Virus record (IMG/VR): IMGVR_UViG_2728369182_000009
Length of the DNA: 38,884 nucleotides
Source: a virus
Taxonomy: Duplodnaviria > Heunggongvirae > Uroviricota > Caudoviricetes
Direction: 5' to 3' (one strand)
Numbering within the stretch: position 1 is the first letter of the stretch; each line of letters starts with the position of its first letter. Made by a program: the position numbers. Below, piece by piece: positions 32,901 through 38,884 of this stretch.

Positions 32901-35900
32901 ATCATTGATGCAACAAGCTGGCGATTGGCTCACTGGTGGTCAAAGTGCAGGGCAAATTGCGGAACAGGCTGGTCGTGGTCTGGTAAACATACCATTTGAC
33001 GTATTGCAGGGCGGCGCAAGTCTGATTAATGCAATCAGCCAGGGGCTTGGTGGCCCCAAGGTTTTGGACGATGTCTATCGTCCAGTCGATCGACCAACAG
33101 ACCCTTATGCGCAAGCTGGAGAAACAATTGGCGGGTATTTAGTTCCAGGAGTTGGAACGGCAGGAAGCATGGCTATTGGATCACTGGCAGAGGCCGCAAA
33201 TCAGAAAGGCGATTTCGCACAAAATGCAGCTAAAAATGCCGGAGTTAACCTTGCCGCTCAGGGGGTTCTTTCCGCAGCAGCAAAGGGAATAGGGCGTGGA
33301 ATAACGGCTATAAAAGGTGATATTGCGCCAGAAGTGGCGAAGAAAATTGCCACATCAGAATCGATGGGCGTGACACCAATGACATCTGATGTTATCACGC
33401 CGAAAAATGCTTTCACTCGCGGCCTAACTCAGGATGCCGAGGGGGCTTTGCTCGGGACAGGCTCAAAGCGAGCGGAGCAATATGCAACGCGTAGTAAGCT
33501 GGTAAGTAATTATTTTGACCGTTTTGGTGAGTACAACCCTGATGATGTGGTGAAATCTCTTACCACCACGTTAAGGGGGCGGAAGGATGCCGCTGGCGCT
33601 GTTATCAATGACGTCACCAATAAAATGGGTAATGCCGCAGTTGATACCACAAATACCATGAATGCTCTGAATACAGCGATCGCAAGACAGGAACGGCTTG
33701 GGACGTCTGCCAATCAAAGCCTGCTTACATCCTTGCGTAACCTACGTGAAGAATTAGCAAACCCTGCAACTGATTTGGATGTTACGTTTGATCTCTTGCG
33801 TCAGCACAGAACAGCATTTAGATCTAATGTTCAGGGAGATGCTATGGTCTTCCCAAACCAGGCAAAAGCAGCTACCAATATGGTAGAGAATGCAATGTCA
33901 AAAGATCTTCGTAACGCAGTTGCAAAAAACCTCGGTGCATCAGACGCAGCAAAATACCTTAAAGCAAATTCCGATTATGCAAACGTTTATAATAAGGTGC
34001 TTAATAAAAACATTGCTAACAAGCTCAACAAGGCAAGCAGTGAAGCCAGTCCTGAACTTATAAATACCGTTGTATTAAGCAGAAAACCATCTGACGTGAA
34101 ACGAATCTGGAGCGCATTGGATAATAAAGGGAAAGATGCTATGCGTGCAGCTTATGTCAGCAAAATAGCGGAAAAGGCCGGTGACTCTCCAGCCAAGTTC
34201 ATCACTGAAGTTAATAAGCTGAAATCTCAGTCAGGCGGTGAAATTTACAACACTATTTTTTCTGGAAAGCACATGAAAGAGCTTGATTCTCTTCATGAAG
34301 TTCTACAGCAAACAGCAAGGTCAGACACCGCAAATGTAGTAACTCAGACGGGGCAATCGCAAGCCAACAGGATAAGGACGATTGGCGCAACTGCGACTCT
34401 TGGCGTATCAATGGGGCTTGAGGCTGGTTTCGGTGCAATGATGCGCTTGTATGAGTCAAAAGCAGCAAGGAATGCTCTCTTACGTTTGGCAAACACCAAA
34501 GCAGGAACACCAGCCTATGAAAGAGCGCTAAATAATGCTGCAAATGCGATACGCCCTATACTTTCAAGCCAAATTACAGCAGAACAGCAATAAAAATAAG
34601 ATATAACTATCTGATATTACTGCTACTGTTGCATGTTACCGTGTTTCCAAATCCTGAATTGCAGTTTGTATATGTGTCAACGCGTGTTGGGTAAGGTTGA
34701 GTTATAACAGGCTGGCGCGCTTTTTGCTCGATCGCTTGCATTGTGTTTACAGCCTGATAATTCAATAAAGCCTGCTGGAATGCTTGGCTTTGTGCTATTT
34801 GTTGTGCTTGTTCTTGGCTTTGTAATTGAACATAAAGATTCTGAAGTTCAAGTCTTGCCTGTGTGTCACTTATCTTGCCTTCATCGACACCTTGCCCGAG
34901 CATCTTCGCAGCAAGGACATACAGCTTAGGTGTTGGTGCTGATGCCATGCGAGAGTCGTTCTTCAAGCTGGCATCAAGGCAATTAGCCATATCGCTAAGC
35001 TTTGGATAGCGTTGCTCGCAACTTGCCTGATAGTCGCTTACTTTTGCGCACCCAGCCAGCAGAAGCGGGATAATTAACAGTGATTTTTTCATATAATTAA
35101 CTCTCCTTAGTTTTGCGCAGGATACCATGAAAAAAGTTAACATTGGAAACGTACCAAAGATGCTCGTTCCGCTCTTTGAGAGCGGTACAATTGTGTTTTG
35201 TAGAGACTTTCCAGAATGGCAACGCCTGCATCAAAAACTTGGCGTTGACGTGCATGACTCGGACGCCAACGGAGCGTCTCATACAATGAGTAGCGAGAAT
35301 GGTGTTTTGCATGTGATAGGCGTGTTCAATGGCAAACTATCTACTATTGCCCATGAGTGCGCTCACATGGCATTCGATATCTGCTCAAGGGTAGGTGTTG
35401 ATGTTGAACCAGGAAGAGCCAACGAGACTTACTGCTACTTAATGAGCAGGCTTGTTGAGTTCTGCGAGCGACATATCAAAAAGCCGGAGTGACCCGGCTT
35501 GATTATTACTTTTTGCTGTCTGGAGTTCGCTTATCCAATACCCAGCCATGACCTGGCTTTGTTGTTGGTGGAAGCCTTTCGTTGTCCTTGACGGTTGCAA
35601 AATTGTCTTTCTTACCGCCGCGTGGGCCAACTTCTTGGTATATTCCGCCGTTTTTTCCTGTGTTTTCACCTGGTTTTTTCGCCATGATATACCTCAACAT
35701 ACACCCGTTATTGGGCGATTAAATATTGATCTCATTTTATAAGTAGTCAATATGGCCCAGGTAAATGCAAAAATTAACCCACCTTCAGGTGGGTTTTTTG
35801 TACAAATCCTTCAGCGTATCAAACACCATCTTCTTAACAAGCTCTGACTGCTCATCAGCGATGCGTTCCGCATCGTCTCGATAGCCTGAAATTTTGGATG

Positions 35901-38884
35901 GCTTTGATACAGCATCATTCACTATCTGAACTAATTCTGAATTAAGAGAGCGGCCATTGGATTTGGCTCGCTGTTTTAGTTTTTCCTTTAATTCGTAAGG
36001 TAGCCGCAGATTAAATTGCGGGTCATCTCTTCCCATTCTTGATGCCTCGCTTTTGTGAGTGGATCGGCATCTTATTATCTGCTGATTGCATCCTCAATAA
36101 GACCACGGTGGTCGTATTTTTTTGATTAATAATGCATCACTGCGGCAATGCTGCGGCGATTCCTTGTATCTGGAGCAAATTAAATGACAGACATTACAGC
36201 CAATGTTGTAGTGAGCATGCCTTCGCAACTCTTCACTATGGCGCGTTCTTTTAAAGCCGTAGCTAATGGCAAAATTTATATCGGTAAAATTGACACTGAC
36301 CCGGTAAATCCTGATAACCAGATTCAGGTCTATGTTGAGAACGAAGATGGTTCTCACGTTCCTGTTGCACAGCCAATCGTCATCAATGCCGCTGGGTATC
36401 CAGTATATAACGGACAGATTGCCAAATTCGTAACTGTGCAAGGCCATTCTATGGCTGTTTATGATGCATGTGGTGCGCAGCAGTTCTATTTTCCAAATGT
36501 GCTGAAGTATGACCCGGATCAGTTAAGGCAGGAGTTAGCAAGTTCAGGTGATGATCTTGGAGATGCATTAATAGCAGTAAAACAACCATTCACCTTGTCA
36601 ATAAGAAGGACGCAGCATCAAAAAAATGCCGAGCACATTAGTGTTAGTGATTTTGGTGCAAAAGGAGACGGCATAACAGATGATACTGTAGCAATTCAAA
36701 ATGCTATTAATGCAGTACCAGAAGGGGCTATACTTGGATTTTATGGTGGTGAATTTGTTTTTGATAAGGTTGAATTGCTTAAGCCAATAACATTGGTTGG
36801 TGATGCAACGTTAATTCACAACGGATTTAGAATAAAATCTAGCAGAATACGATCACTTTTATCTGGTGTTCAGAAATGCAAGGATTACTCCGAGTCTTCA
36901 AGAGCATTTTATTGCTATGCAAATGAAGACCAAAGAGATTATGACGATATTCAGATTTTGTTTAATAGATTTGAAGGTTTCTTTTACTCTACGGCATTTG
37001 TTGCAAAAAACTATTATTTGGAGAATGACCCTAATTCAAGAACTGTCAAAAATACAAAAGTAATAGGATGTACATCAGTTGCTCCTGATTCTGTAAATGC
37101 CGGTCATTTTCAACATATAGGCGTTACAAATGCTGAAACATCACATAACTCAACTTATGGCGGACAAAATGCAACATCATACAACTTCATTAACCAGAAT
37201 GGATTTGTAAGGATTATAGGAAATTATGACCATAACAATAGCTATGGTTCATGTGAGCTTGAGAACTCAATGGTGAGTAACTCAGTCATATCATGTAATA
37301 CGTTTTCGTCATATTTATGGGTGGATGATACAAGCAATGTTACTATTTCTGGAAATACAGTTTCATCAAGGATCAAAGTAACATCGCAAACTGACGATGT
37401 TCATAATATAACCATATCAGCAAATACCACAAAACGGATTACTATAGAGCAATTTGGAGAATCTCCGACAGGTCTGGTATATGGTGCATTAATTTCCTGT
37501 AACACTATTACTGGCGACAGTGATGGAAGTTCAGACATTTTATGTACGTCACTTGTTACAGGTGAAATTTCATCAAATTATTGTCATGGATCAGAAAAAA
37601 ATATATCAATTGTCCGCCTGGATTCTTCTGATATAACTGTTAGAAACAATAAAGGAAACAAAGGATTACTTACAATAAGTAACGATGGTGGGAGGATAAT
37701 TGAATATGGCAATGATTCTATGGTTCTGTCTGGAAGCATAGATAGCAGACATATACATAATTTATTACAACCAGACACATCGTATTTAGATCTACCGGGG
37801 AAATATCTGCACGGAACTAAATATACTGGCAGTATCCCCCCCGGTTCCACAGGAACTGTATCACTTCAAATACCATCAGGGGCAAGCCTTGTTTTCAGGG
37901 GTGTTTCTATATGGGTTCTAATTAGAGATGTTAGCAATAACAATATATCGTCATTCAGAATTGATGGTTCATATAGAGTTGTTGGTGGAAGTGTTGGTCT
38001 TAGTTTTGCTGATGCTTATTCGAAACTCGGGGTGGATGCAAACTCTATAACAGTGTCAAACAATAACAGCACTTCTGACAATATCAGCATAGCAATTAAA
38101 AACACAGATTCATCAAAAACCCTTCAGGTTACTGTTATGCCGGAGGTTTCAAGCAGGTTAGGTATTGAGGAATAGCATCATATATAATTATTTTAATGTT
38201 AATGCCGCCTTCTTGTTGGCGGCTTATTTGTGAAAATCGAATGAGTTATTTATGATGAATATAGAAGTTGATATAACACCAATTCTTCACGCACTTTGCG
38301 CTGTTGTCGCACAAGTTCTGGTTGGTCTTTTTACCGGAAACTGGGCTTACGGTGCGATAGCCGGTTGTACGTTCTTCATTGCGCGTGAACACACCCAGGC
38401 AGAATATCGCTGGATTGAAATGTTCGGGCATGGCAAGCGTATGAATATGCCGTGGTGGGGTGGTTTTGATCCACGCGTGTGGGATGTAGGAAGCCTTATG
38501 GATTTTTCTTTCCCAATTATCGGATGCTTATTGGTATGGATTCTTGCATCGTAGCGAACACATAATTACCGATGAAACAAAACTGAGACACACAAAGCTT
38601 TGCACTGGATTGCAAGGCTTTGTGATCTTCGATAGTGGTTAAGGTGGATCACTCCACCTTTTCATCAAGCCAATCCGCCCACCACTGCATCATTTCTCTG
38701 CGCTTAACGTAGTTGATGCATCACTATCACCCTGTAATGGCTTATTACTGGTTTGCAGACAGGTAGGCATGAACATATGCCTGCGCATGAAGATGGAACT
38801 AGTCCGGATGCGATATTTTTGGTGATCACGTACATCATCAACGAAGTGCGTTATGGTGAGTTTGATGACTACCCGCTGAAGTGA

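What the first reader, a model, noticed from the sequence alone, without database searches (positions are those of the whole stretch)
35785..36183. Orphan Mnt repressor with an intact O_mnt palindrome directly upstream of the tailspike; arc and ant are absent
mnt and a 21-bp operator very close to P22 O_mnt are present, but the arc-ant genes that O_mnt/Pant normally control are missing, so the operator now sits 66 bp upstream of the tailspike start codon. Either Mnt modulates tailspike expression from a Pant remnant, or it is retained as an immunity factor that silences ant of superinfecting P22-like phages.
Basis: partly seen in the sequence, partly recalled or inferred. Interest (0 to 1): 0.45.

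Follow-up and report, generated by a model that had tools for sequence, protein, structure and literature searches.

The report
Stand-alone Mnt repressor with own operator
This P22-like E. coli prophage keeps only the Mnt repressor gene, its promoter and its matching DNA binding site next to the tailspike gene; the arrangement is common and already published, but the repressor and its site belong to a recognition class different from phage P22's.

Summary
There is an intact 83-aa mnt gene (35785-36036, minus strand). A 21-bp dyad (36097-36117) lies 66 bp before the tailspike ATG. There is no arc or ant.

It is not new. "mnt-only ant morons" were described for ST64T, ST104 and phage L in 2008 and 2020. 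The same stretch occurs in 112 of 5,426 complete E. coli genomes and in named phages (Gally, ST160, SE1).

- **No Pant remnant.** The only credible promoter is leftward Pmnt (TTGAGG-17-TAAGAT). Its -35 abuts the operator exactly as in P22.
- **The operator is not P22's.** Its half-site is AGACCAC, against GGTCCAC in P22. This form always accompanies Mnt with Gln6/Leu9 instead of His6/Phe9, across more than 130 Enterobacterales phage loci; in distant RHH relatives from other bacteria Gln6 goes with an A (not T) before CCAC.
- **The gene is under selection.** dN/dS is about 0.1, the half-sites are invariant and the centre base varies freely.
- **Complete immI regions split by class.** Those sampled in E. 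coli and P22-like phages are His6 class. Complete Gln6-class regions occur in other enterobacterial phage contigs.

Most likely this is a functional repressor-operator cassette acting at its own promoter. It may silence ant only of phages of the same operator class, not of P22. That function is untested.

The parts
35785..36036 (-). mnt: 83-aa ribbon-helix-helix repressor with a C-terminal tetramerisation domain. The N-terminal strand is GRDDPQFNLRLP (Gln6, Leu9).
   Evidence: dN/dS is 0.07-0.16 against other stand-alone lineages.
35785..35860 (-). 3' part of mnt (the last ~25 codons, within the 1QEY-matching tetramerisation region, residues 53-83), nearly identical to P22 DNA. A mosaic breakpoint lies at about 35860-35885.
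   Evidence: Identity to P22 is 97-100% here and 53-70% upstream of it. The megablast match to P22 ends at window 35883.
35776..35795 (.). Bidirectional terminator-like hairpin overlapping the mnt stop codon.
   Evidence: The equivalent feature is annotated in phage L and epsilon34.
36045..36048 (-). Likely mnt Shine-Dalgarno sequence (GAGG), 8 nt before the ATG.
   Evidence: Read directly from the sequence.
36069..36074 (-). Predicted Pmnt -10 hexamer, TAAGAT.
   Evidence: Best promoter match in the region, score 10.5. It sits at the same position in all stand-alone lineages and in P22 Pmnt.
36092..36097 (-). Predicted Pmnt -35 hexamer, TTGAGG, 1 nt from the 17-bp operator core.
   Evidence: The geometry is the same as P22's TTGAGA-17-TATCAT.
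36097..36117 (.). Mnt-type operator ATAAGACCACgGTGGTCGTAT. The 17-bp core is 36099-36115 and the dyad centre is 36107.
   Evidence: The half-sites are at least 94% conserved in 36 distinct sequences from 111 loci, while the centre base is free. The operator form co-varies with Mnt residue 6.
36118..36130 (.). Variable junction. Its sequence differs between lineages. In this window it is a T-run, which makes the dyad look like a weak terminator.
36131..36183 (+). Conserved tailspike leader with Shine-Dalgarno GGAG (36172-36175), shared with P22, HK620 and ST160.
36184..38175 (+). Tailspike: a P22-type head-binding domain joined to a different receptor-binding domain.
35506..35700 (-). Homologue of P22 orf59a (function unknown), downstream of mnt on the same strand.
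   Evidence: 96.6% DNA identity to P22; phrog_3202.

Best explanation
The stretch is a self-contained, functional mnt cassette, the 'mnt-only ant moron' already known from phages L, ST64T, ST104, ST160, SE1 and Gally.

**Anatomy.**
- A leftward promoter, Pmnt, drives mnt.
- A 17-21-bp dyad abutting the -35 of Pmnt is the cognate operator of this Mnt.
- There is no rightward Pant, no arc and no ant.

**Recognition class.** Repressor and operator belong to a natural class (Gln6/Leu9; half-site AGACCAC) distinct from P22's (His6/Phe9; half-site GGTCCAC).

**Inferred mechanism.**
- Tetrameric Mnt is made from the prophage and binds its own operator, setting its own level at Pmnt.
- In trans it can shut off Pant-ant of incoming phages that carry the same operator class.
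- This would protect the resident lambda-type cI repressor from antirepressor-mediated induction.
- It would not act on P22-class immI.

**What is shown and what is inferred.**
- Shown: gene identity, selection on the gene, operator conservation, residue-operator covariation, absence of Pant, and the existence of ant loci of the same class.
- Inferred: expression in lysogens, the sign of autoregulation, and the trans-immunity role.
For: **Identity.**

**Already described.**
- PMC2629481, section 15, and the 'Secondary Immunity' section of bioRxiv 10.1101/2020.10.05.325894 describe this arrangement.
- The same arrangement is in GenBank phages and in 112 of 5,426 E. coli genomes.
- In the first IMG/VR survey, every one of the 65 loci whose Mnt is at least 90% identical to this one lacks arc and ant.

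**Selection.**
- dN/dS of codons 1-50 is 0.07-0.16, with synonymous sites saturated.
- Operator positions -8 to -1 and +1 to +6 are at least 94% conserved in 36 distinct sequences from 111 loci. The centre base is G12/T10/C8/A6.

**Covariation.**
- Every PQFNLR Mnt has AAGACCAC-N-GTGGTCT(T/C/G).
- Every PHFNFR Mnt with a recognisable dyad has AGGTCCAC-N-GTGGACC.
- Distant RHH relatives in Pseudomonas, Burkholderia and Comamonas with Gln6 have (G/A)ACCAC-N-GTGGT(C/T).

**Promoters.** Pmnt is the top match and is positionally conserved. There is no rightward promoter.

**Potential trans targets.** Complete mnt-operator-arc-ant loci with the AAGACCAC operator and a good Pant exist.

**Vulnerability of the resident repressor.** The window encodes a lambda-type cI (HTH + S24) with rexA and rexB. 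P22 Ant is reported to inactivate the lambda, 21 and L repressors (PMC3121763).

**Tetramerisation domain.** It is essentially P22's.
Against: - No expression or binding data exist for any stand-alone Mnt.
- The complete immI regions sampled in E. coli genomes are His6 class. A complete Gln6-class locus gave no megablast match in 5,426 E. coli genomes. In this host the proposed trans targets may therefore be rare.
- The Pmnt score (10.5) is only about the 90th percentile of the best scores in shuffled sequence. Its support comes from positional conservation.
- Strict conservation of the operator in cis is not required by a purely trans role.
- A 38%-identical mnt homologue in phage Kapi1 was not detectably expressed in lysogens (PMC12922286).
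- The covariation may reflect a single ancestral His/Gln switch, so it is few independent events.
Confidence: 0.45

Rival explanations
1. Tailspike dosage control. Mnt bound at the operator, 77 bp (dyad centre to ATG) before the tailspike start, acts as a roadblock. It reduces how many late-operon (or stray prophage) transcripts read into the tailspike gene.
For: - The operator always lies between the last terminators of the moron and the tailspike.
- Strict conservation of the operator in cis fits a cis role.
Against: - The operator keeps a fixed distance to mnt (centre 70-72 nt from the mnt ATG). Its distance to the tailspike varies: mnt ATG to tailspike ATG is 135-151, about 420-430, or 922 nt. 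It is therefore tied to Pmnt, not to the tailspike.
- P22-like phages with no mnt at all (HK620, Sf6) make tailspikes (PMC2629481).
- There is no rightward promoter for it to control.
Confidence: 0.15
2. Autoregulated repressor with another, unidentified target. Mnt would control host genes, or genes of other prophages, through further AGACC-class sites outside this window.
For: - The gene is under strong purifying selection although the phage lacks an ant gene.
- Related RHH-plus-dyad modules are widespread outside phage immI contexts.
Against: - There is only one operator in the window, and one in the 43-kb related prophage.
- No host genome could be scanned with the tools available.
Confidence: 0.15
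3. Decaying remnant. After deletion of arc and ant, mnt and its operator persist without function.
For: - The phage L genome paper lists this as one possibility.
- HK620 shows that the region can decay to remnants.
- One locus (L069) has a truncated mnt, and a few loci have single operator mutations.
Against: - mnt is intact in more than 100 loci, with dN/dS about 0.1 and saturated dS.
- The half-sites are invariant while the centre base varies freely.
- The promoter position is conserved across lineages whose Mnt is down to 60% identical.
Confidence: 0.08
4. A Pant remnant drives tailspike transcription and is repressed by Mnt.
For: In P22 the operator overlaps the start of Pant, and Pant points towards gene 9.
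Against: - The P22 Pant -35 and -10 hexamers and O_arc are replaced by unrelated conserved sequence.
- The best rightward match scores 5.2, below the shuffled median.
Confidence: 0.05

Closest known systems
mnt-only 'ant moron' of Salmonella phages ST64T, ST104 and L (also ST160 and SE1; E. coli phages Gally and vB_EcoP-720R6)
   Same: - It lies between the gene 16 homologue and the tailspike.
- Of the immI genes only mnt is present.
- It has the same Gln6 N-terminus (MGRDDPQFNLRLPY), the same AAGACCAC-N-GTGGTCT operator, the same Pmnt position and the same conserved mnt-proximal intergenic sequence.
   Different: - The window's mnt is a mosaic: the last ~25 codons (C-terminal tetramerisation region) are nearly identical to P22 DNA, whereas phage L has a different C-terminal sequence.
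- The junction to the right of the operator, and the centre base, differ between lineages.
Phage P22 immI region (mnt, O_mnt/Pmnt/Pant/O_arc, arc, sar, ant)
   Same: - Homologous Mnt (76% identity) with the same two-domain build.
- A dyad operator 1 nt from the -35 of Pmnt.
- Location just before the tailspike gene.
   Different: - There is no arc, ant or Pant, no O_arc segment, and no DNA in which sar could lie.
- His6 is replaced by Gln and Phe9 by Leu.
- The half-site is AGACCAC instead of GGTCCAC. The published P22 consensus is GTGGACC (PMC2726951).
P22 Arc repressor (DNA-reading strand)
   Same: - The strand PQFNLR(L/W)P is the same in this Mnt and in Arc.
- The outer operator box AAGA/TCTT resembles the TAGA/TCTA boxes of O_arc.
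   Different: - The N-terminal arm, the inner CCAC-N-GTGG core and the box spacing are Mnt-like.
- This protein has the Mnt tetramerisation domain, which Arc lacks.
HK620 region between gene 16 and the tailspike
   Same: Same position, same flanking genes (hkcC, the orf59a homologue) and same tailspike leader.
   Different: HK620 retains only the terminator remnants of mnt and ant. It has no repressor and no operator.

Membership tests
Mnt repressor (P22 type; Pfam PF03869 + PF11423; PDB 1MNT, 1QEY) | N-terminal ribbon-helix-helix DNA-binding domain | tested here: met
   Pfam Arc 2.2e-22 over residues 3-50. 1MNT 2e-34.
Mnt repressor (P22 type; Pfam PF03869 + PF11423; PDB 1MNT, 1QEY) | C-terminal tetramerisation domain | tested here: met
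   PF11423 2.1e-18 over residues 53-80. 1QEY 3e-12. The DNA here is 97-100% identical to P22.
Mnt repressor (P22 type; Pfam PF03869 + PF11423; PDB 1MNT, 1QEY) | DNA-reading strand residues Arg2, His6, Asn8 and Arg10. That these are the contact residues is recalled from Knight and Sauer's work, not checked here. | tested here: not met
   Arg2, Asn8 and Arg10 are kept. His6 is Gln and Phe9 is Leu. It is a homologue of Mnt, but of another recognition class.
Mnt repressor (P22 type; Pfam PF03869 + PF11423; PDB 1MNT, 1QEY) | Operator with the P22 half-site GTGGACC | tested here: not met
   The half-sites here read GTGGTCT (left arm, reverse complement) and GTGGTCG (right arm). The P22 consensus is taken from PMC2726951.
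Mnt repressor (P22 type; Pfam PF03869 + PF11423; PDB 1MNT, 1QEY) | Specific binding of the protein to the adjacent dyad | not testable with these tools
   Supported only indirectly, by residue-operator covariation and half-site conservation.
Complete P22-type immI region | arc gene divergent from mnt | tested here: not met
   tblastn with P22 Arc hits only mnt itself. No ORF fits in the 147-bp gap.
Complete P22-type immI region | ant antirepressor gene | tested here: not met
   There is no tblastn hit to P22 Ant in the window. Of the nin-region ORFs scanned with Pfam, the one at the position of the relative's KilAC gene carries an HNH domain. Not every ORF of the window was scanned with Pfam.
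Complete P22-type immI region | Rightward promoter Pant overlapping the operator | tested here: not met
   The best rightward score is 5.2, against 15.5 for P22 Pant. The consensus scan found none.
mnt-only ant moron (Villafane et al. 2008) | Located between the gene 16 homologue and the tailspike, with mnt as the only immI gene | tested here: met
   The gene 16 homologue is at 32746-34593 and the tailspike at 36184. The layout is the same as in L, ST160 and Gally.
mnt-only ant moron (Villafane et al. 2008) | Expression from the prophage | not testable with these tools
   Only a promoter prediction is available.

The most novel reading that the evidence does not exclude
**Proposed reading.** Gln6/AGACC and His6/GGTCC are two naturally occurring, mutually blind Mnt-operator classes.

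- The stand-alone Gln6 copies would be anti-antirepressor immunity cassettes.
- They would protect a resident prophage repressor from Ant delivered by phages of the Gln6 class only.

**What it would explain.**
- Why phage L was scored genetically as lacking secondary immunity although it carries an intact, selected mnt.
- It would supply a natural counterpart to the engineered altered-specificity Mnt and Arc variants.
Probability: 0.3. Interest if true: 0.5.

Novelty: already known. Interest (0 to 1): 0.25.

Why it matters
As found, this is an ordinary, widespread and published feature of P22-like prophages, so the window itself adds little.

The useful by-product is a concrete, testable answer to a question that the phage L and epsilon34 genome papers left open: is the lone mnt a remnant, or does it do something?
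- It is under purifying selection.
- It keeps a cognate operator and promoter.
- It belongs to a recognition class different from P22's.

If the class difference holds experimentally, it defines hetero-specific secondary immunity groups among enterobacterial phages. It would also give a natural single-residue specificity switch (His/Gln at position 6) in a textbook DNA-binding protein.

Tried and rejected
1. **Pant remnant.** The consensus scan and a weighted hexamer scan on both strands found no rightward promoter. Rejected.
2. **Dyad plus T-run as an intrinsic terminator**. The hairpin is weak, 5 bp and part of a -7.4 kcal/mol fold of 45 nt. The T-run is absent in the ST160 and L lineages. 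Not a conserved feature.
3. **Conserved hairpin (GATGCC...GGCATC) in the mnt leader hiding the ribosome site.** Predicted folds are weak and inconsistent, with an alignment consensus of -2.7 kcal/mol. The upstream arm probably lies outside the transcript. Dropped.
4. **A second operator elsewhere in the phage.** None was found at up to 3 mismatches in the window or in the related 43-kb prophage.
5. **An antirepressor elsewhere in the window under Mnt control.** There is no P22 Ant homologue. The KilAC antirepressor gene of the related LD67-1 prophage lies in a part of the nin region that does not align with the window, and the window ORF at that position scanned with Pfam (15171-15677) carries an HNH domain.
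6. **A complete Gln6-class immI region in E. coli.** Megablast found nothing. The distant search found only His6-class complete regions.
7. **Primary papers on Mnt contacts** (Man and Stormo 2001, Berggrun and Sauer 2001, Susskind and Botstein 1978 review). They are not held in the library. The role of His6 in base contact therefore rests on my recollection.
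Full report
**1. What is there**

The window is a mosaic P22-like (Lederbergvirus-type) E. coli phage or prophage.
- Its right 7.2 kb is 99.8% identical to a prophage of E. coli LD67-1 that lies between dacD and sbcB.
- Its early region carries a lambda-type cI, rexA, rexB and sieB.

The gene order across the finding is as follows:
- a gene 16 homologue (32746-34593, +);
- a lipoprotein-like ORF (34607-35143, -);
- an hkcC homologue (35127-35492, +);
- a bidirectional terminator (35481-35500);
- an orf59a homologue (35506-35700, -);
- a second bidirectional terminator (35776-35795);
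- mnt (35785-36036, -);
- a 147-bp gap;
- the tailspike (36184-38175, +).

The mnt product is unmistakably Mnt.
- It matches Pfam Arc at 2e-22 and Repressor_Mnt at 2e-18.
- It matches PDB 1MNT at 2e-34 and the tetramerisation peptide 1QEY at 3e-12.
- It is 76% identical to P22 Mnt.

The dyad is real.
- Its arms are 36096-36106 and 36108-36118, with a 17-bp core at 36099-36115.
- It occurs once in the window, against 0.08 matches expected by chance.
- It ends 66 bp before the tailspike ATG.
- Neither Arc nor Ant of P22 has a homologue in the window.

**2. It is common and already described**

- The stretch 35500-36400 aligns end to end with Salmonella phages ST160, SE1 and ST-35 (86% identity).
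- From mnt onward it aligns with E. coli phages Gally and vB_EcoP-720R6 (96%). In all of these mnt directly precedes the tailspike.
- 112 of 5,426 complete E. coli genomes hold the whole mnt-to-tailspike-start stretch.
- Among the 80 best IMG/VR loci encoding a relative, all 65 with at least 90% identity lack arc and ant.
- Villafane et al. [quoted passage not shown] The arrangement is thus known. Its function is the open point.

**3. No Pant remnant, but a conserved Pmnt**

In P22 the gap reads TTGACA-17-TATATT (Pant) with O_arc between the hexamers. O_mnt follows, and Pmnt (TTGAGA-17-TATCAT) lies on the other strand with its -35 1 nt from O_mnt.

In the window only CAATA plus the dyad is shared with that layout.
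- The 60 bp between the dyad and mnt is a different sequence. It is itself highly conserved among stand-alone lineages from E. coli, Salmonella and others.
- A weighted hexamer scan puts the best site of the region on the mnt strand: TTGAGG-17-TAAGAT, from the -35 at 36097 to the -10 ending at 36069, score 10.5.
- Every stand-alone lineage has its best or near-best site at the same position (TTGTGG-17-TATGAT in L and ST160). This is also the position of P22 Pmnt, which scores 13.1.
- Rightward, the best score is 5.2. That is below the median best score of shuffles (7.7). P22 Pant scores 15.5 and the Pant of a complete Gln6-class locus scores 11.3.
- The simple consensus scan agrees.

The operator centre is about 45 bp upstream of the predicted Pmnt start, as in P22.

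**4. The operator and the repressor form a distinct class**

The window's 21-mer differs from the P22-pbi operator at positions 4, 6, 16, 18 and 20. In the class consensus the changes are symmetric:
- P22 has AGGTCCAC-N-GTGGACCT;
- this class has AAGACCAC-N-GTGGTCTT.

The association with the protein is consistent across all loci examined.
- Every Mnt beginning MGRDDPQFNLRLP, or a close variant (Gln6, Leu9), has the AGACC form.
- Every Mnt beginning MARDDPHFNFRMP (His6, Phe9) with a recognisable dyad has the GGTCC form. This set includes P22, epsilon34, UPF_BP1, two E. coli prophages, and the Pluralibacter and Pectobacterium loci.
- A small His6 group (MARDDPHFNFRMPL, L070-L073) showed no CCAC-N-GTGG dyad within 200 nt and was not examined further.
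- The rule extends to distant homologues. A 39%-identical protein (MSREDPQMKIRLPA) has TAGACCACGGTGGTCTA.
- In a scan of one genome per species, RHH proteins of Pseudomonas, Burkholderia, Comamonas and others carrying xRxDPQ(F/M)(K/N)(L/I)R have (G/A)ACCAC-N-GTGGT(C/T) upstream.

Gln6 with an A at that operator position therefore looks like the widespread state, and P22's His6 with a T looks like the derived one.

Further points bear on the recognition class:
- The published highest-affinity half-site of P22 Mnt is GTGGACC. Its seventh position matters less than 3-fold (PMC2726951).
- The class switch is therefore mainly at half-site position 5 (A to T).
- The window's private deviation (G at position 7 of the right arm) is probably tolerated.
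- The reading strand PQFNLR is identical to that of Arc (PQFNLRWP).
- The outer box AAGA resembles the TAGA box of O_arc.
- That residue 6 contacts the outer half-site is my recollection of Sauer-lab work. The papers are not held in the library.

**5. It is maintained by selection**

- Between stand-alone lineages, codons 1-50 give dN/dS of 0.07-0.16, with synonymous sites at or near saturation.
- In 36 distinct upstream sequences from 111 loci, operator positions -8 to -1 and +1 to +6 are at least 94% conserved. The dyad centre is G12/T10/C8/A6. This is the pattern expected of a dimer-of-dimers site.
- The gene is also a mosaic. Its last ~25 codons (the C-terminal end of the tetramerisation region) and the adjacent orf59a are 97-100% identical to P22 DNA. 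The DNA-binding two-thirds are only 53-70% identical to P22, and closest to ST160 at the 5' end.
- The DNA-binding domain, Pmnt and the operator therefore travel as one unit.

A functionless remnant is unlikely.

**6. What it does**

There is only one operator in the window and in the related prophage. No ant gene is present. The only cis target is therefore Pmnt itself, and autoregulation is the minimal role. Its sign cannot be predicted.

A benefit that would explain selection is trans-immunity.
- P22 Ant is reported to inactivate the repressors of L, lambda and 21 (PMC3121763).
- The window's repressor is lambda-type.
- A resident Mnt would silence Pant of an incoming phage with the same operator class.
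- Such phages exist. At least eight IMG/VR loci have mnt (MARDDPQFNLRM...), then TTGACA-17-CATCAT, then AAGACCACGGTGGTCTC, then arc and ant.
- They sit in contigs about 82% identical to the Salmonella phages S107 and SPN3UB.

Several observations weaken the idea for this host.
- The two complete immI regions inspected among the E. coli hits are His6 class.
- A complete Gln6-class locus has no megablast match in 5,426 E. coli genomes.

[quoted passage not shown] It fits a Gln6 Mnt that does not act on P22's operator, because phage L carries exactly this class. I could not read that paper.

The main rival is a roadblock that tunes read-through into the tailspike.
- Villafane et al. raise this possibility for P22.
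- Against it, the operator keeps its distance to mnt while its distance to the tailspike varies between about 65 nt and several hundred nt.

**7. Verdict**

| Claim | My estimate |
|---|---|
| mnt gene and a cognate operator are present | ~0.95 |
| The cassette is functional | ~0.85 |
| Its recognition class is distinct from P22's | ~0.7 |
| No Pant is present | ~0.8 |
| It acts as trans-immunity against ant phages of the same class | ~0.35 |

The finding is an already known arrangement and is of low to moderate interest. The class covariation is the one point worth an experiment.

Noticed in passing
window 36107 (dyad centre) and the same position in L005-L069: The centre base of the operator is the most polymorphic site of the mnt-proximal intergenic DNA. 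In 69 loci with Mnt at least 98% identical it is A35/G22/T9/C3. Every other site up to the right operator arm has 11 or fewer minority alleles. All four bases occur on the same flanking haplotype. This may be a hotspot at the palindrome centre; it is unexplained.
   Followed up: partly
window 35860-35885 (inside mnt): There is a recombination breakpoint inside mnt. The last ~25 codons of mnt (C-terminal tetramerisation region) and orf59a are nearly identical to P22 DNA. The DNA-binding part with its promoter and operator belongs to another lineage.
   Followed up: yes
RefSeq phage records (e.g. NC_014900 ST160, NC_004348 ST64T, NC_027398 Sf101); phrog_795: Mnt homologues are annotated as 'partition protein ATPase' in several RefSeq phage records and in PHROG 795. 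This is an evident naming error for an 83-aa RHH repressor.
   Followed up: no
L205 (phage Sf101) and L209 (phage N7): Further classes exist at the same position. Sf101 has a stand-alone Mnt-like protein (..DEAQFHLRLPHEL) next to a different dyad-like site (AGTACCATTTCGGTAT). N7 has an unrelated short RHH protein with arc and ant.
   Followed up: partly
L215-L263 (Pseudomonas, Burkholderia, Comamonas, Acinetobacter and other genomes): RHH proteins with the Mnt-like N-terminus xRxDPQ(F/M)(K/N)(L/I)R are widespread. Most carry an ACCAC-N-GTGGT dyad either about 18-20 nt or about 65-90 nt before their start codon.
   Followed up: partly
window 34607-35143 (-): The ORF at the position of P22 sieA encodes a different protein of unknown function (phrog_6067). 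It has a lipoprotein-type signal (MKKSLLIIPLLLAGC) and may be a prophage-expressed surface or exclusion function.
   Followed up: no
window 5224-8635: A P22-like virion module is combined with a lambda-type immunity region: cI-like repressor (HTH + S24), rexA, rexB and sieB.
   Followed up: partly
window 15171-15677, 17480-17992, 20007-20492: There are two HNH_3 endonuclease genes (one also with an AP2 domain) and a T5orf172/MUG113 gene. These are probably free-standing homing-endonuclease-like insertions. The first lies where a related prophage has a KilAC antirepressor.
   Followed up: no
L022, L034, L052, L053, L057, L069, L178 and similar loci: In some relatives the conserved tailspike leader and the first codons (ATGACAGAT...) directly after the operator are a remnant. 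They are followed by about 280 nt of other DNA before the real tailspike start. This shows repeated recombination at this junction.
   Followed up: partly
phage Kapi1 (MT813197), literature: In RNA-seq of a Kapi1 lysogen, the phage's mnt homologue was not detectably expressed (PMC12922286). That homologue is 38% identical to this one and has arc and ant beside it.
   Followed up: no
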